The notes under the pieces are model-generated. The model made no database searches. It worked only from the letters and a program-made list of their open reading frames with translations, and was not told where the DNA came from. From NCBI GenBank assembly GCA_030265395.1, contig JARFYF010000119.1, positions 32,349,751 through 32,413,750 on the forward strand: 64,000 nt of DNA. The letters are read 5' to 3'. The stretch is from Rhina ancylostomus. Taxonomy: Eukaryota. The position numbers and the translations under genes are program-made. This document shows, one piece after another, positions 12,900 through 41,611 of the stretch. The first letter of the stretch is position 1. Each line of letters starts with the position of its first letter.

Positions 12900-12968
12900 A
12901 GGACAAACAGGGGATTTTTACCCAAATCAGAGCTCAGGACAAACAGGGGATTTTTACCCAAATCAGAG
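12900..12968. repeat. Tandem duplication, period 36 bp
   Basis: aggacaaacaggggatttttacccaaatcagag twice. Confidence 0.9.
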
Positions 12969-13129
12969 GTCACTGTTTTATTCTCACATATTGATAAGCA
13001 CCAGATGAACTGAGAAAAGATTAACTGACTTTACATTAAGAAAATTGGACCAACATTTCAACACGATTCAGAAAGACACCTTTTACTCAGATTTCAAATT
13101 TTTGGCTAACTACCACCTTATTTAAGAAT

Positions 13130-13368: not shown

Positions 13369-13495
13369 CTTTTGCTCGGTGAGCAAGTCTGTGATTGTTT
13401 GTGACATTTCATCAAAACTCTGAGCCGTTTTGACCAAATTACGAAGAATTTGTATATGCTGATGTAATGGCTCAAAGTCACAAATTGTAGGAACC
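13369..13495 (-). CDS. RB1CC1: RB1CC1 coding exon 12 (127 nt)
   Basis: VPTICDFEPLHQHIQILRNLVKTAQSFDEMSQTITDLLTEQK; ttttcctgaaag / AAG|gtaaat. Confidence 0.96.
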
Positions 13496-14040
13496 CTTTC
13501 AGGAAAAAATCAGAAACAAAAATTAGCTCAACCAGAATGATTTTTCTCATATTTAAATCAAATAGAGCAGCTAAACTCTACAAAAATAAAACAGATCTTT
13601 GCATTTTTATTTAACAAATCATAGTCTTGACTCAAATGCCAACCCTGCTAAGAGGGCATTTCTGTGAAAGCAACTGGAAAATACTGAAAATAACATCAGA
13701 AGATGCAAAAAAATAGTATAATATAAAAAAGCTTCACCTGACCTGTTGACATATCAACATATTGCATAATACCTGCAATTTCTACATGGTGGTTCTCCAA
13801 AGTCAATTACTTTACAGGGGAAAAAAGGATGATCCTCCTTTCCACAGGAACAAAGACAATTTAAGATGCGGAATGAGTCAACCTACTTTCTTTTAAAAAA
13901 AAGCTACATCTAGTAACAACAAGGAGGAGCAAAAACAAAATGAGTTGCTAACCAGCTCACTTTTCAACTGATACATGGCTGTTGAACTAAAATAATACAA
14001 TTAAAAGTTCGAAGCTTTTTTTAAAAAAAAAGTTACTTAC

Positions 14041-14058
14041 CTTTGTAAACAGTTGTCA
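14041..14058 (-). other. RB1CC1: Candidate 18-nt in-frame microexon TGACAACTGTTTACAAAG
   Basis: Consensus donor AAG|gtaagt at 14040, weak acceptor tccctgaag, open in phase 2. Confidence 0.3.
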
Positions 14059-14506
14059 CTTCAGGGACCAAGATATCCTCAACATACCATGGTTAAGGTC
14101 AGCATAATGGCAATAGAAAATAAAAACAAAACTCTAAGACCTTCAGCCAGAACTGCACAACAATATTAGAGAGGTAAAGTGTGTCCCCTTGTGGTCATCT
14201 TAGTATTTTCAGCCAGAGAGGGTAATGTAACAGAAATTCCATCCCCCAATTGGCAGAAAAATTTGACAAGATTTAAGCAAGTGTTAACTGTTCAGACTGA
14301 TTATTTGAAATTTTAATCTAATTACATTTTGCAATGCAATACTATTGCAAAGTCAAAGTTTTAAGTGTATGAAACTGAAGGCACAAAATGTAAAACTCTA
14401 AAGTACAAAACAATAAAAAGATGGAAAATTTGGTATGTGGTTAACTTCATTTGAAGAATGAGAATTACGGCACCTCAAGGCGAGTAAATCTACCTTTCTT
14501 CATTTG

Positions 14507-15464
14507 TTATCCTCCACATACCACGAAAAACATTGCAAAATACTTATAGTAGAAAAAAAACTATTTATAATAAGTAGTTTGTGAAGTGGATCAGATACAT
14601 TGCCTGAATTTAATGGTATAGAAGATGCATAATCTCTTTTGAATGTAGGAATCTCTGAATATGGCCATTGCCTGCAATTGCTAAAATATTTCATCATTTC
14701 TACATGCTTGGGGTGAATGGCCATTCAGTTTTGCAGATGTTAGATGGTTACTATTCAGAAAGATAAGATTAGCTGTTATTTTTGGTCAGTTTTAAGCAAT
14801 TTCAAGAGGTTGCCAATAACAGGGAAGTTAATTTAGAATAAGACCCAATTTTCAACATGTTTTGATCTTCAAACTGGGACTTGGCTCAACTTGTCCCTGA
14901 GCATTGCATTAAATGACTCTTCTTTCACTCCAAGGCTAATAGCATCTTTCAGGATTTGAATTCATATGGAGAAATTAGTATTGTTTCAGGAAGTATAGGA
15001 AAACCAGTTTTTAAGCCATGCCAAATGGCAATTCAGATGAGCCAAATCTTCTACTCCTGTATTTTTTTTTGGAAGGGCTTGGCTGTACAAAATTTACTGA
15101 AAAAGATACATTTCAGAAACTTTCTGACCAAACATAAAAAGAGCCAATTACAAAAAAAATTCCAGCAGTCAAAAGATAACTTTGATGAATGCATATAGTA
15201 TGGATCCCATTTTTAATCCACTTTATTGACTCAAATATTCATCAGTAAAGCACCAAAGACATTATTTTTCCCTTCAAACAAAAACGAAGTATGATGTCTT
15301 GTTCATAGAAAGCATTTAAAAAAAAATCACAGAAGAGTAAACCACAGTTGACAGATTATATTGTAGAATATGAAAGGAAACTTGGTTGGTTCTGGCTGAA
15401 AAATGTCTTTAAAAGAACATTTGTCCCCATTATGCTGATTTTACCTGTGGTATGTGGAGGATAA
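14507..15464. repeat. Perfect 18-bp inverted repeat (14507-14524 / 15447-15464)
   Basis: ttatcctccacataccac and gtggtatgtggaggataa are exact reverse complements. Confidence 0.9.
15222..15444 (-). other. RB1CC1: Candidate stop-containing alternative exon (poison or alternative terminal); 3' end uncertain
   Basis: Acceptor ctatctctctttttcattatcctccacataccacag with an 88-nt AG-free zone; gives AG|G TAA; AATAAA at 15227-15222. Confidence 0.4.
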
Positions 15465-15546
15465 TGAAAAAGAGAGATAGTTCATCAAGTTTAAAAATTT
15501 TGTACCATTCCAAAATTTGTATTTGTATGAAGCACTTTGCACTTAC

Positions 15547-15555
15547 CTTTTCCTC
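15547..15555 (-). other. RB1CC1: Candidate 9-nt in-frame microexon GAGGAAAAG
   Basis: ttctaat branch motif at -19, aaacag acceptor, consensus AAG|gtaagt donor; frame-preserving in phase 2. Confidence 0.5.
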
Positions 15556-18500
15556 CTGTTTAAATACATCCCATTAGAAATTATGAAAGTCATGGAACAG
15601 ATTGCCTTTTAGCAACTTGACCAATGAAGTGATATTTTATCTTTCACACAGTGATAACTTGGGACTACTTGCTATTCCAATTTTAATTAGCCCTTGTAGC
15701 CTTTCCTTCCAACATGTCTACCCATCTTTAGGCAAGTTCCAAGATACCCACTGTTCCATTTTGACTGAACTTTGGGCACACACCAAGAGCAAAATCTATA
15801 ATTGAATATTAGCATCGATAAGGCTATTGTAAAGAATTAAAGGTAAAAGTATATGGAATTTACTTGGCACAAGAATGAGGAAATCTATTCTTGCAGTTTC
15901 TTCAACTGTTAAATCTTAAAGGGCAAACAAGAATTTAACAAAGCTATCTAACATAACTGAATATGAATTTCTATTGATCTGACATTATCCCTACATCAAA
16001 GATGAAAAGATATACAGAAAAGAACATCTTAAATGTCACTACTGGCAACAATTGCACTAATGATAGTACAAGTGGTAGCCTCAAACAAAACCAGTAAGTG
16101 TAAGGTGTTCATTTCTGTTTAAGTTATTTGAGATCATTTATCTGAAATTTCAGTTAGCAATTACTAGGTCAAGGGTTCCTTCAATTCCCTACTTCTATAC
16201 CTGAAATAAAAATGTTAACTAATGCAAAAGTATTAAGTGCATAAATAAGAACCACATCCATGATTCTTTCAACATGGGCCCAAGTCTACTTGTAAGGATC
16301 ACCCTTCTGAAATATGTCAACAACCTACCTGCTTTATTCTCATGGTTTAGATGAATTAAGGTTTTTACAGGAAGTTCAATATTATCTTTACAAGTTTTGC
16401 GGGTGAAGTTGGACGAGATAATCCCAGTCTTTAAGGAAACCACATCCTCAGGGCACGTAACCTGAAGTTACAAGAGTGCTTCCTTAATGCCTAGAGAAAT
16501 TGTGGATGGATATTTGTCTCATCAAGATTTCAGGAGAACTAGGAGTAAACTCCACATTTTGGTATCAACTATTCAAATCAGTCCTCATATTTTCACTGTG
16601 TTGACTAAATGCATCAACTCCAGCTATCAACATAATTTAGTTACCAAATTTCAAGTCAATCAGAGGTAGATGTTTAATAAAGTAGTGCACAGAAGGTAGC
16701 AAAAAAAAAACAAAGAAGAATAATGTGCAAATCTACAGCTTCCAAGATATTTAACTTTCAGGTAAAAAAAACTGAGGGCACTTCAAACAAGAGCTGATGT
16801 TTACAATAGAAGAAAACTGCACCTTCATGCCAAAAGACTTAACCAAATTATCTAGCTAAGAAAATAATCTAGTACTGAAGTGGTGCTGCACTGTCAAAGA
16901 TCTTGAAACTAACATAACGTAATTGAACAGAAAGGGATTCTTGCAAGGGAATGACCTTAACCTTTCCTCATTAAATGCCAACAACTGTTTGTGGCTTCTT
17001 GCCAAGCACAATAGTTACCATATTTATTATGGAGTACACAGAACAATACAGCACAAGCACAGGCCCTTCAGCCCACGACGTTGTGCTGAACAAAATAGAT
17101 CCTCACTACTACAAGTGTACCAGTCGTCAATGTTCAGGGTACGCAGTTTCTGCCAGCAGGTCCCAGTACACAGTCTTCCATTGGGAAACTGGCTCCCAGC
17201 ACATCAGCAAAGAGCAAAACAGCTTGCAATCTTCCCAACACTTGTGGCTAGCTATAGTAACAAGAATGCCATCAACACTGATCAACCTCACTGCCAGCTG
17301 TCAAACCTGTTGTTTAAAACTTCAGTCAGCTATCACTTTGTGTTTCAATAAATCATTGAAAGCACAAACTTCTAAGACAACTAAAACATTTAAGCTAATT
17401 TAAAATCAAATATCTTTCTCCTCTCAGCCAATGCTCACTATACTTGTGTCAGGATAACCTGGTTCAGGTTCAACGGGTGGATTTCCCAGCCAGACAGCAG
17501 AGAAATCTCAAAACANNNNNNNNNNCTATGACACTACAAGAAGAATCCAACGAAAAGCAATGCAGAAGTCCCGTGCACTATAACCTCATCTCAGGAATTG
17601 ACCACTAATAAGCATATTTGTTGATAGATCTGTCACTGAAATAATCTCAGAAATTACAGCATAGCACATGAGCTTCAGTCCTTGCTCTTCAACACGATGT
17701 AAAGCTAAGCAAGTGGTCCTTAACCTACATTAACTTTAAGGGAACTGTTCTCCATGTTCAATTCCTTCTCCAAACAGATGAAAAGATGCTTACTTAGTAT
17801 CTTGTTCATTTTCAATCCCAAGTAGCAGAGGAAAAATTAGAACAATATATCAATTTGATTAAATAAAAGGATGATAAAAATGCAAGCACAGATCAGATGT
17901 GTTGAATTATCCATTTGTGTTTAAATTCTATACAAAATGCTTCCACTGCACCAGGATCCAGTACAAAGGGAGATGTTTTATTACTACCACTACATTAAAC
18001 CAATCGTATAAAAGTTAGGTGTTTGCTTTCCTAGTTTTTGCCATAAAATATTTTACTAAATTTAATGCTAAGTGGTTTAACACACTATGTGAACTAATTT
18101 CTAGTAAAACATTGCATCAAGGCACTGCAATTTGAATCCCTCCAGAAATAATAAACGCATACAAAGGACAGCTCATTGAAGCAAGATTGCCATTAAGAAT
18201 ATTTGACATATAAATTTATATGCGCTAGTCTCATATTTAAAATTATATTTTTGTTTTCCTTTCAACTGTTAGATTCATCATGCTCCATGGATTGCTGTGA
18301 TTTATTCACCTTAAAACTTCTTGTAGCATAATGCTTCACATTCTAATAAACTTTTGCATGAAGCCTTGCTTTGTCCATGCAGCAGCAAACTTAAGTTATA
18401 AGAGATAATGGGACTAGAAGTTTAAATTTTCAACCATTTTTTATTGGGAGACATTGAAGAGTTTAAGTAGCAGTTAAACAAAATCAGAAGGTTTACCCAA

Positions 18501-19425
18501 GCAAAAGGAAGGAAATTTTCCCTATCATAAAATTCTTAATGGTTTTAGTTTGGCAAAAGATGCCTTTTTTTTAAAAAAACAAAAACTTATTTACTGAGCA
18601 ATGTATTTTTACATTGAGCATAGAGTGAAGATAGAACAAAAATTAATGTTTAAAACTGAATGCCAAAGAATAAATACCACTATTGAAGTTGTGGCATAAT
18701 CCTCACCCCCTAACTAATAATAGTTCATATATTTCAAAATTATGCTGTATGGTCAAAATGAAATCACTTCATAACCGCCTGCATCCAAATAAATCACAAT
18801 GCAGGCAAAACACTCCTCTCTCATCCTGGGGAGCAGGGTATCAGGGCACAGAGGCATGTCTAAAACCAGGACATTACTTCCTTGGTACTAGACAGGAAAT
18901 AGTCCAAATTGAAAGTTCAGATACTGTTATGTTCAAATACAAAACCTCACTGGAAGATTACTACATCGTTTTTCCTTTTTAAAAACAAAACTGGCATTTA
19001 AATTATATCCACTCTCAAAATACATATCAGCCTTAAGAACACAAGCATAACTTAAATACCCAAGGCTCAGGATACTTAAATAGGCCTGTGATATTTAGCA
19101 GATAATGCTTTGCGCTTTTTTGCTACAGACTAAAAGTCACATTTCAGTCAAGCCAAAAATGACCACATTCTTCATTGCCTTGAGTTACAAAAAATTTTTA
19201 ATAAAAAGAGGAAATTTCCATTTTTGGAAAACTATTAAGGTAATTTCAGATGATTCAAGCATCTTGAACACTATAAAAGTATAAAACTAGTGCATCAATC
19301 AACAGAGTACTGATACTTAAATAATATATTTTGTTTCCAGTTTTATACAAAGGATCAACATCCTAGGTCTTCATATTTGGATGGTTTTGCAACAAGCTTG
19401 TGTGGCACTTAACTGTGTAAGTTAC

Positions 19426-19529
19426 CTGAGAAATGGCTGAACTTCTGAAGGACAACAGGACTGCAGAAACTGCAAATCAGCTAAGGATACATCAGGAAGT
19501 TCAAAGTCAAACTTCCGAGGCTTGTGTGT
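19426..19529 (-). CDS. RB1CC1: RB1CC1 coding exon 11 (104 nt), contains KPRK and LQFL motifs
   Basis: THKPRKFDFELPDVSLADLQFLQSCCPSEVQPFL(R); ttgttgcag / AG|gtaact; ends in phase 2. Confidence 0.96.
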
Positions 19530-20530
19530 CTGCAACAATTAAAAGTTAATAATTTAAATTAATATTTTAATGCTGTTAACAAATCATGACCTAATGTGAC
19601 AGTTTCTCACATATGTAGTTGTTTAAGTGGAAGAAATGAATATCTTAATTAAGTCCTAAAATGGCTGTAATTATATTTTTGTAAATTACACTTTTCAGAA
19701 GGCAAATAACTTGTAATTTCTAGTATGTGATAAAAGACCAAAAGCAAAGCTGCCATTGAAATAGCAACATTTAAAGACTTACTAGTGAGGGGCTCTCATA
19801 CTTTGACTTTTTAAATAATTGTAAGCATGCTCCCCGCAAGTGAAGAGATGACTATCCTCCACTAACACTGGTAATCAGAGGCTGGTCCTCATGGCCTGCA
19901 AGATGTATGCAGAAAGATCTTCCTTTGTTAGGGAAAAGGCACAGTGGCCATGGGGAATCAAGTATCACTTGCTCACAACGCAAACAAGGATGATTCTGGA
20001 ATTAAGACCAGTGCCAGCAGTTGCAAGAATGAACACCATTACAAATGTTCAATCCCACAACAAATTAACACCTCAAAAAGTGATACTTTAGTAACAGTAG
20101 CTTAGGAAGAAAATATAGCCCAAGGAGGGCATAGTAGGTATAATAAGCACTGCTAGAGTATAGCAGGGCTGAGAATTCAAAGTAATATTTAATTTAAAAG
20201 AAAAACACAGGTTATCATTTTCACAGGGTCCATGACAAGTGAAGAAACTGCTTCTCAACTCTCAACCAAATTGATAAGCTCAAATGCTCATTTAGGACCT
20301 ACATAACTCATTGGTTATACATGACAGAATGAATAACTAAACATACATTATTTAAAAAAACTCATCTTGCAAGTTAAACAGATGAGGGAAAAAACCTTAA
20401 TATTCCTTCAAATTAGAACATTAAGAGGGTATTGAAAACGTTACAAATACAAAAATCATATAATCACTGAAATTCTGCAAATGTTAGCAAATGTAATATT
20501 TTAATTATTCAAACAAAAATGTATACGTAC

Positions 20531-39254: not shown

Positions 39255-40295
39255 AGTTTAAATTTATTGTCATAGGCATATATACACAGGGTATAAATGC
39301 CATGAAAATCAGCAGTTTGCAGCAGCACAGTACATTATATAAACTTAAATTAATATATTATACATAACACAATAAACAAAACAATGACATTAGTGCCAGT
39401 TGAGAAAAATGTCATCCAAGCTAATATTAGTTTTAAGTTGGTTCCAAGAACCTGATGGCAGTGGTGAAGCAGCTGTTGCGAGCATGCTATGTTGGCACCA
39501 GAAGAGTGGTGACACTTGCGGGATGCCCCAGTACATTCTCAGTATCGCAAAAAGATGCATTTCATTGTGTTTTGATATACATGTGACTAATAAATAAATT
39601 CCTTGTTGAACCTCAAGNNNNNNNNNNNNNNNNNNNNNNNNNNNNNNNNNNNNNNNNNNNNNNNNNNNNNNNNNNNNNNNNNNNNNNNNNNNNNNNNNNN
39701 NNNNNNNNNNNNNNNNNGTGTTTTGATATACATGTGACTAATAAATAAATTCCTTGTTGAACCTCAAGATGTTTGTCTTCTGGCTCCTGTACCTCCTGCC
39801 TGATGACAGCAATGAGAAGAAGGCATGGCCCGGATGGTGGGAGTCCTTAATGATGGATGTCACCTTCCTGAAACATCATCTCTTGTAGATGCCCTTGATG
39901 GTGGGGAGAGTTTTACCCATGATAGAACTGGCTGAGTCCACTTCTCTCTGTAGCCCCTGGCTCCTTGCTTTCCTGTGCATTGGACTTCCCATACCAGGCT
40001 GTGATGCAACCAGTCAGAATGCTTTCCACTATACATCTGCAAAAGGTTGTTAGTCTTTGATAACATGCTGAATCTCCTTAAACACTTAAGTAGAGACACT
40101 AGCGCACCTTCTCTATGGGTGTACCTATATGCTGGACCCAGGATAGATCCTCCGAGATGTGGACAGCGAGGAATTTGAACCTGCTCACCTTTCCACCACA
40201 GAATCTTCAAATGAGGACTGGTGCTAGTTCATCAACTTCCCTTTCCTAAAGTCACAATCAGTTCCTTGGTTTAGTTGACATTGAATGCAAAGTTG
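39255..40295 (-). mobile_element. Rex1/Babar-like LINE 3' portion with a small nested insert
   Basis: Minus strand gives degenerate NNNFAFNV..TKELIV.FRKG and LRRFSMLSKT, homologous to the plus-strand copy at 41255-41611. Confidence 0.7.
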
Positions 40296-40299
40296 TTGT

Positions 40300-41611
40300 T
40301 ATGACATTAACACTTTACATGCCATTACTTCCTACAAGGCAAAACCCAACAGCATAAATAACAGTAATGCTTCATTCCCCAGTAAGTTCAATGCCTTTTA
40401 TGCATGCTTTGAAAAGGAGAACAACATTACACCTATGCAAATCCCCACAGCATCAGGCAACCCTGTGATCGGTGTTTCTGAGGACGACATCAAAGCATCC
40501 TTTGAGAGGGGGGATCCCTCGCAAGGCATCAGGCCCCGACAGTATACCTGCCAAGATACTGAAACTCTGTACTGACCAACTGGTTGGAGTGTTCAAGGAC
40601 ATCTTCAACCTCTCACCGCTGAAGCAGGTGAGAACCTCCAACTGCAAAAGGGGCATCAATCAACCGGTGCCCAAGAACAGAGCAGGGTGAGCTGCCTCAA
40701 TGACCATCACCTGGTAGCACTCACATCTATTGTGATAAAGTGCTTTGAGAGGTTGGTTATGGCTAGAATTAACTCCTGCCTGAGCAAAGACCTGGACCCG
40801 CTGCAATTTGCCTACTGCCACAACAGGTCTACAGCAGATGCAATCTCATTGGCTCTCCACTCCGCTTTGAAACACCTAGACAACAGCAAAACGTCAGGTG
40901 GCTATTATCGATTACAGCTCGGTGTTCAACACCATCATCCACTCATTACTAATCAACAAGCTCCAAAACCTGGGCCTTTGTACCTCCCTCTGCAACTGGA
41001 TCCTCAACTTACTTTTCGGAGACCAGTCAGTGCGGATCAGTAGTAACGTCTCTTCCTTGCTAACAAAGAATGCAGGCACATCTCAAGGATGTGTGCTTAG
41101 CCCACTGCTCTACTCTCTCTGCATTTATTATTGTGTGGCTAGGTACAGCTCGAATTCCATCTATAAATTCACCAATGACATCACTGTTGTTGGCAGAATC
41201 TCAGATGGCGATGAGGTAGTGTACAGGAGTGAGAGAGATTGGCTGGATGAGTGGTGTTGCAATGGCAACCTCACACTCAACATCAGCAAGACTAAAGGAT
41301 TTGATTGTGGACTTCAGGAAGGAGAGGTTGGGAAAACACAAACCAGTATTCATTGAGGGGTCAGCGGTGGCAAGGGTGAACACCTTCAAGTTCCTGGGTG
41401 TCAACATCTCAGAAGATCTGAGCTACAAGTTATAAAAATAAATAGTGCAAAAGAGGAATAAAAATGCAACACATTGATGCAATCATGAAGGCAGCACACC
41501 AGCAGCTCTACTTCATTTGGAGTTTGAGGAGATTTGGCATGTCACCAAAGACTCTTGCAAATTTCTACAGATGTAAAATGGAGACCATTCTGACTGGTTG
41601 CATCACTGCCT
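40300..41611 (+). mobile_element. Rex1/Babar-like LINE reverse transcriptase pseudogene
   Basis: Overlapping ORFs: [53 protein letters not shown]...[18 protein letters not shown]...[15 protein letters not shown]...[15 protein letters not shown]...FKFLGVNISEDLS; frameshifted. Confidence 0.9.

What the first reader, a model, noticed from the sequence alone, without database searches (positions are those of the whole stretch)
14507..15464. Perfect 18-bp long-range RNA duplex that would mask a stop-introducing 3' splice site in RB1CC1
Seen: 15447-15464 and 14507-14524 are exact reverse complements about 920 nt apart, in sequence that does not resemble the window's repeats. In the pre-mRNA the upstream arm (uuauccuccacauaccac) is precisely the pyrimidine tract directly before AG|GUAAAA at 15445. 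The helix may extend past a bulge (uuuuuca with ugaagaa). Established: long-range intronic pairing can block splice sites. Inference: a structural switch, possibly sensitive to elongation rate, that decides between full-length FIP200 and a truncated or NMD product. I do not know of this being described for RB1CC1.
Basis: partly seen in the sequence, partly recalled or inferred. Interest (0 to 1): 0.8.

Follow-up and report, generated by a model that had tools for sequence, protein, structure and literature searches.

The report
Competing RNA helices in RB1CC1 intron
In a ray's autophagy gene RB1CC1, one intron stretch next to a possible stop-causing splice site has two distant complementary partners, so the RNA is predicted to swap from one helix to the other while it is being made, which would likely keep that site hidden; whether the site is ever used is untested.

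Summary
The 18-nt inverted repeat is real, and the 18-mer occurs only at these two places in the 2.2-Gb genome. It is one piece of a four-arm set in the intron between RB1CC1 coding exons 11 and 12. S1 can instead fold back on D' (14458-14431). Both states bury the tract before AG|GU, which scores as a donor as well as an acceptor; either use gives a premature stop. Function is unproven: no RNA run, no arms in one bird-like and one teleost orthologous intron, conservation in a close relative inconclusive, no strand preference in folding, and no in-frame insert in 244 of 244 readable proteins. Best reading: an ATE1/BRD2-like splicing structure restricted to a lineage (0.45). Main rival: a relic of local inverted duplications (0.35).

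The parts
19426..19529 (-). RB1CC1 coding exon 11 (upstream exon; ends in phase 2)
   Evidence: tblastn with ray and shark RB1CC1, residues 563-597; sequence
15547..15555 (-). Candidate 9-nt microexon with a full-consensus donor at 15546; in frame alone (adds RRK), stop if extended to 15445
   Evidence: sequence; joint top donor score in the intron; translations; no insert in 244 of 244 readable proteins
15447..15464 (-).
15439..15446 (-). AG|GUAAAA dual site (possible acceptor and possible donor); A15440 and A15439 (donor +5, +6) face two C in the D:S2 helix
   Evidence: use untested
15340..15438 (-). Arm D, inner part: 12-bp perfect block 15438-15427 (predicted toehold), 13-bp block 15401-15389 and weaker blocks; pairs only with S2
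14507..14524 (-).
14431..14458 (-). Arm D': partial second copy of D that folds back on S1 as a local hairpin (-33.6 kcal/mol, z -3.8)
14111..14197 (-). Arm S2, inner part, partner of 15426-15340
   Evidence: -43.8 kcal/mol, 0 of 300 shuffles as low
14074..14110 (-). Arm S2, outer part: 37-nt, 84% partner of D that spans the AG|GU site; late partner
   Evidence: no listed change in relative X2
14035..14043 (-). Second full-consensus donor (G at 14040), 34 nt beyond the outer end of D:S2
   Evidence: use untested
13369..13495 (-). RB1CC1 coding exon 12 (downstream exon, AAG acceptor)

Best explanation
The 18-nt repeat is one helix of a four-arm set (D, S1, D', S2) in an RB1CC1 intron that likely acts on the pre-mRNA as competing structures keeping a stop-causing AG|GU site at 15445/15444 buried. 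Shown: the four arms, their uniqueness in the genome, and the stop that any use of the site gives. Predicted: D pairs with S1 as soon as S1 is made; about 400 nt later S2 docks on the inner part of D, takes over the shared 16 nt, and the freed S1 folds back on D'. Inferred: both states hide the pyrimidine tract, so the default is productive exon 11 to 12 splicing; the hand-over, or a delay in either helix, would be the window in which the site is recognised and the message sent to nonsense-mediated decay. The long D:S2 stem would also loop out 1.1 kb and bring the two consensus donors (15546, 14040) close together.
For: The 4 strongest of 18,336 tile-pair duplexes in the 5.9-kb intron all involve D. 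One 16-mer with two separate partners: 0 of 150 shuffles and 0 of 67 tiles of the window, none of which spans all three arms. D:S2 88 bp, -86.8 against -38.2 +/- 5.0, lowest of 200 shuffles -51. The order of states holds at 37 and 20 C and with two 5' starts. The arms overlap an AG that scores like the true acceptors (4.85 against 4.57 and 3.78) and a GU close to the true donors (4.26 against 5.2 and 5.66); the two best donors of the intron bracket the stem (home-made matrix). No listed substitution or indel in 14024-14157 in a ~97% relative. Precedent: ATE1 competing pairings (PMC7797038), BRD2/BRD3 poison exons (PMC10789245), paired regions enriched over cryptic sites (PMC8052449).
Against: The arms are absent from a bird-like (2.5 kb) and a teleost (0.74 kb) orthologous intron: no blastn hit, 7 of 8 local-alignment tests at shuffle level, the eighth a 13-nt purine-rich match outside the arm's core. 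The antisense strand folds as well or better (-94.8 against -86.8; -46.6 against -46.3; -34.4 against -33.6) and only 6 of 88 pairs are G-U, so no sign of selection on the sense RNA. Low divergence in the relative is not significant (P 0.15-0.28); of its changes in the inner stem one keeps a pair (15350), one breaks a pair (14165) and one is a deletion (14158). No compensatory change was seen. 244 of 244 readable proteins have no insert at this junction. Consensus donors also occur at 2 unrelated intronic places in the window (22088, 9315). Nested folding forbids the pseudoknot in which D:S1 and the inner D:S2 coexist; rough sums put the two end states only some 4-8 kcal/mol apart before a pseudoknot penalty.
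Confidence: 0.45

Rival explanations
1. The arms are a functionless relic of local DNA events: an old inverted duplication of about 130 nt (D and S2), then short template switches that copied the same hairpin-prone segment again (S1, D'). The RNA may fold, but nothing depends on it, and the splice-like motifs are chance.
For: No strand preference and few G-U pairs; absent in bird-like and teleost introns; perfect blocks of 12-13 bp are not far above what a 70-75% decayed copy would keep (inference); AGs scoring like 15445 are common, it ranks 10th in 13400-19600.
Against: Three copies converge on the same 16 nt while the 80-nt flanks show no homology in 6 of 6 alignment tests (p 0.06-0.84); the shared segment sits on a dual splice site between two consensus donors; no listed change across outer S2 in the relative (not significant).
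Confidence: 0.35
2. D:S2 is mainly an ADAR substrate. Editing of the two A facing C at donor +5/+6 would turn GUAAAA into a consensus-like donor and extend the microexon into a stop; editing of the A of the AG would remove the acceptor. S1 would delay formation of the editable stem.
For: Long imperfect stem with tandem A-C mismatches at 15440/15439 in both registers; the teleost intron has a genomic CAG|GTAAGA about 75 nt after a microexon-like segment; paired regions are enriched in editing sites (PMC8052449, passages); ADAR2 blocks U2AF65 on a tract paired with a GA-rich arm in RELL2 (PMC7005744, section 9). ADAR's liking for A opposite C is recalled.
Against: A-C and G-U arise equally from transitions in a decaying DNA repeat (inference); the teleost likeness has no significant alignment; no paper found for RB1CC1 with A-to-I editing and ADAR.
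Confidence: 0.12
3. The stem is an RNA bridge for exon definition or back-splicing: it brings the branch region before 15445 next to the donor at 14040, defining a 1404-nt poison exon or a circle of that length.
For: The outer end of D:S2 (15463:14074) lies 34 nt from the best donor of the intron and about 20 nt from possible branch adenosines; the 1404-nt exon starts with a stop.
Against: The helix covers the tract and the AG that such splicing needs; circle-promoting repeats normally lie outside the circularised exon (PMC8052449, figure legend passage).
Confidence: 0.08

Closest known systems
Competing pairings R1/R4:R3 in human ATE1 (PMC7797038; abstract and section 14 read)
   Same: Two similar intronic segments complementary to one shared segment; outcome tied to co-transcriptional folding.
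   Different: ATE1 elements are conserved across vertebrates, control mutually exclusive exons and were tested by compensatory mutation. Here one upstream arm has two downstream partners plus a sink for the displaced one, no duplicated exon pair was found, and nothing is tested.
Poison exons of BRD2 and BRD3 controlled by paired conserved complementary regions (PMC10789245; abstract read)
   Same: Long-range intronic pairing next to a stop-causing splice choice, sensitive to elongation rate.
   Different: There the exon is shown by RNA-seq and minigenes and the pair flanks it; here the helix covers the splice site itself and use of the site is not shown.
PCCR catalogue (PMC8052449; abstract and passages read, 5 supplementary files searched)
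   Same: Intronic long-range helices that obstruct cryptic or inactive splice sites.
   Different: PCCRs are defined by vertebrate conservation, which was not met in the two distant orthologues tested.
RELL2 tract:GA-rich duplex bound by ADAR2 (PMC7005744; abstract and section 9 read)
   Same: A pyrimidine tract paired to a purine-rich arm, with a second arm able to replace the first.
   Different: RELL2 pairing is local (intron to next exon) and ADAR2-dependent; here it spans 0.9-1.4 kb and no protein factor is known.
Conserved hairpin in RB1CC1 of Shepard and Hertel 2008 (seen only as one sentence and a reference in PMC9198270)
   Same: Same gene, RNA structure linked to alternative splicing.
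   Different: Its position could not be read. It is described as a conserved hairpin; the arms here are long-range and missing from the bird-like and teleost introns, so it is probably another element, but this is unchecked.

Membership tests
Competing long-range RNA structures controlling splicing (ATE1, Dscam docking/selector type) | One segment complementary to two or more mutually exclusive partners | tested here: met
   D pairs with S1 or S2 over the same 16 nt; S1 with D or D'
Competing long-range RNA structures controlling splicing (ATE1, Dscam docking/selector type) | Each partner tied to one of several mutually exclusive exons | tested here: inconclusive
   Each partner is followed by a donor-like site (14493 weak, 14040 strong), but flanks show no duplication and no insert is seen in proteins
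Competing long-range RNA structures controlling splicing (ATE1, Dscam docking/selector type) | Splicing changes on disruption and is rescued by compensatory mutation | not testable with these tools
   needs a minigene
PCCR (paired conserved complementary regions) | Both arms conserved across vertebrates | tested here: not met
   absent in 2 of 2 distant orthologous introns, bird-like L004 and teleost L005
PCCR (paired conserved complementary regions) | Conservation or covariation within the lineage | tested here: inconclusive
   one ~97% relative covers S2 and part of inner D only; P 0.15-0.28
PCCR (paired conserved complementary regions) | Stable intronic helix overlapping a cryptic or inactive splice site | tested here: met
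   predicted only
Poison exon / unproductive splicing | Use of the site introduces a premature stop upstream of further introns | tested here: met
   all 5 non-microexon candidate forms stop within 14 codons of exon 11; further exons follow
Poison exon / unproductive splicing | Junction reads exist and rise when decay is blocked | not testable with these tools
   needs RNA reads from this lineage
Site-selective ADAR substrate | Imperfect stem with A opposite C at the target | tested here: met
   A15440 and A15439 opposite C14097 and C14098
Site-selective ADAR substrate | A-to-G differences between RNA and DNA | not testable with these tools
   needs RNA reads with matched DNA
Dispersed repeat or MITE ends | Further copies in the genome | tested here: not met
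   very old, diverged copies could escape these searches
Box C/D snoRNA in the loop (14697-14591) | Rfam match, or a guide of 10 nt or more directly before box D or D' | tested here: not met
   no Rfam hit there; best rRNA match 10 nt, ending 9 nt before box D, with only 18S and part of 28S tested

The most novel reading that the evidence does not exclude
A natural toehold-driven strand-displacement timer in a vertebrate pre-mRNA: S1 holds the splice tract for about 400 nt of transcription, S2 docks on the inner blocks of D and strips it off, D' traps the released S1, and the hand-over (perhaps with A-to-I editing of the donor's +5/+6 positions in the final stem) sets how much RB1CC1 message goes to decay in rays.
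Probability: 0.12. Interest if true: 0.8.

Novelty: new member of a known kind. Interest (0 to 1): 0.45.

Why it matters
RB1CC1/FIP200 is the scaffold of the autophagy-initiating ULK1 complex (recalled), and a stop after residue 597 of about 1590 would remove the whole coiled-coil and C-terminal part. A structure-based switch on its dose would be a new case of unproductive splicing, and a lineage-restricted one, which catalogues built on conservation to human cannot see. The four-arm layout, with a docking block and a sink for the displaced arm, makes co-transcriptional strand exchange directly testable in a 2-kb minigene. If the arms prove neutral, the case is a warning that a unique, highly significant set of inverted repeats can arise at the DNA level.

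Tried and rejected
No RNA holder listed, so expression, junction use and editing are open. Run X2 has no cover over D (15430-15491) or S1 and D' (14341-14950); a hole proves nothing. Dispersed repeat or MITE: rejected. Assembly artefact: the X1 contig agrees, though it may be the source sample. Rfam family: 5 weak hits at E 0.27-4.6, none on the arms. C/D snoRNA in the loop: rejected. In-frame microexon: none in 244 of 260 proteins whose junction could be read, 16 not matched; one search listed only the best 120 of 604 hits, which biases against inserts. Truncated isoforms: 8 shorter proteins found, 5 read; one ends at the exon 11 boundary but starts in intron-like sequence, so it is uninformative; four 598-599 aa proteins were fragments of the large exon. 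Tandem duplication of S1 and S2 flanks: not found. L006 (50% match) gave no tblastn or blastn hit and was dropped. Shepard and Hertel 2008 not held. RB1CC1 not in the 5 held supplements of PMC8052449, but the full catalogue lies outside them; supplements of PMC10573301 could not be read; both may bear on novelty. Literature searches for this element found nothing specific. Earlier scan notes: none on this DNA.

Full report
Observation. The two 18-mers are exact reverse complements with 922 nt between them. A DNA contig of run X1 matches 13565-17088 without a difference. An 18-nt inverted repeat within 2 kb appeared in 2 of 150 shuffles of the window. The exact 18-mer occurs twice in the 2.2-Gb genome, both here; the degenerate 16-nt core six times, three here; the other hits and those of three further patterns do not extend. 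So the repeat is real, local and not a dispersed family.

Setting. The gene is RB1CC1 on the minus strand. Among the six named proteins laid on the window, the sawfish one is closest (94% over the large exon, against 77-84%). The arms lie in the 5.9-kb intron between coding exon 11 (19529-19426) and exon 12 (13495-13369). Exon 11 ends in phase 2, so splicing to 15444 gives a stop at once; the 9-nt microexon candidate alone is in frame, and extended to 15445 it stops after four codons.

The upstream arm D has a second partner, S2: 14074-14110 pairs with 15463-15427 over 37 nt at 84%, across the AG|GU. The duplex runs on inward to 15340:14197, 88 pairs, -86.8 kcal/mol against -38.2 +/- 5.0 in 200 shuffles; the inner part alone beats 300 of 300 shuffles. 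The four strongest of 18,336 tile pairs in the intron all involve D, and a 16-mer with two partners arose in 0 of 150 shuffles.

Predicted order. On transcripts ending between 14480 and 14120, D:S1 has probability about 1.0. When the 12-bp block of S2 is present (end 14095) D:S1 falls to 0.001 and S1:D' rises to 0.998; on the full stretch D:S2 is 0.97 and S1:D' 0.999, at 37 and 20 C. Forcing D:S1 costs 12.8 kcal/mol. This is a nested model: D:S1 and the inner D:S2 cross each other, so a pseudoknotted state is excluded by the program. Rough sums of the parts put it only some 4-8 kcal/mol above the nested end state before its own penalty, so the swap may be partial. The docking block is also only about 40% unpaired in the early state.

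Splice signals. With a simple matrix built from recalled frequencies, the AG at 15445 scores 4.85 (true acceptors 4.57 and 3.78) and ranks 10th in 13400-19600; the GU at 15444 scores 4.26 (true donors 5.2 and 5.66). The two best donors of the intron, at 15546 and 14040, bracket the stem. The same 8-mer occurs at three other sense-strand places: one true donor and two that look like chance. Both helices bury the tract; only D:S2 spans the GU, and there the +5 and +6 adenosines face two C.

Conservation. A metagenome scan gave 3 loci from 158 candidates. L004 is bird-like (its exon 12 peptide equals that of a bird protein) and L005 is teleost-like; both hold the whole intron. Neither has the arms, and their best inverted repeats are a simple A/T run and a local palindrome. 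The teleost intron has a microexon-like segment followed by CAG|GTAAGA, a loose likeness without significant alignment. In a ~97% relative (X2) no change is listed in 14024-14157 (at most one unlisted in that piece), which is not significant (P 0.15-0.28). No compensatory change was seen. The antisense strand folds as well as the sense strand. All 244 proteins, of 260 held, whose junction could be read lack an insert.

Reading. The most likely function is to keep a stop-causing dual site hidden through two successive helices, with the hand-over as a possible point of regulation (0.45). A neutral relic of local inverted duplications explains the lack of strand bias and of deep conservation and is nearly as likely (0.35). 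An ADAR substrate (0.12) and an exon-defining or back-splicing bridge (0.08) remain open and are not exclusive of the first.

Known work. It works like the competing pairings of ATE1 (PMC7797038, abstract and section 14) and the structure-controlled poison exons of BRD2 and BRD3 (PMC10789245, abstract); paired regions are enriched over cryptic sites (PMC8052449, abstract and passages); RELL2 has a tract paired by two alternative GA-rich arms (PMC7005744, abstract and section 9). It fails the conservation test that defines PCCRs. A review mentions a conserved RB1CC1 hairpin from Shepard and Hertel 2008 (PMC9198270, section 11 and reference); that paper was not held, so its position is unknown to me. 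Eight searches found no description of this element. PMC10573301 was seen as a search listing only.

Verdict. Observation confirmed and larger than reported; interpretation partly supported; function predicted, not shown. Interest 0.45.

Noticed in passing
window 15555-15547 (-): 9-nt microexon candidate with a full-consensus donor; would add three basic residues in frame, but is seen in none of 244 readable proteins.
   Followed up: partly
L005 2397-2506: The teleost RB1CC1 intron has a UGC-preceded AG, a 12- or 17-nt segment and a donor, then CAG|GTAAGA about 75 nt further: a possible unannotated microexon (the UGC motif as a neural microexon mark is recalled).
   Followed up: partly
L005 2679-2707: Near-perfect 29-nt palindrome in the teleost intron (score 36 against shuffle mean 27, highest shuffle 40).
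   Followed up: no
window 14697-14591 (-): Box C-like and box D-like motifs 107 nt apart in the loop between D and S1; no Rfam hit and no properly placed rRNA guide.
   Followed up: yes
window 14724-14503 (-): 74-codon open frame from ATG that ends inside arm S1; probably chance.
   Followed up: no
window 12900-12971: 36-nt tandem duplication (97%); a contig of relative X2 skips one unit.
   Followed up: no
window 15990-15547 (-): The second-best acceptor of the intron (15991) with the 15546 donor would define a 444-nt stop-containing exon, an alternative to the microexon reading.
   Followed up: partly
window 39996-40095 and 41506-41611: Inverted pair of repeat fragments (106 nt, 77%) holding an exact 21-nt inverted repeat 1.6 kb apart in another RB1CC1 intron.
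   Followed up: partly
window 17036-17091: Short very high-copy repeat fragment (thousands of contigs laid) in the same intron.
   Followed up: no
G000:C7:38232420-38238298: An 18S and partial 28S rRNA unit is assembled on contig 7.
   Followed up: no
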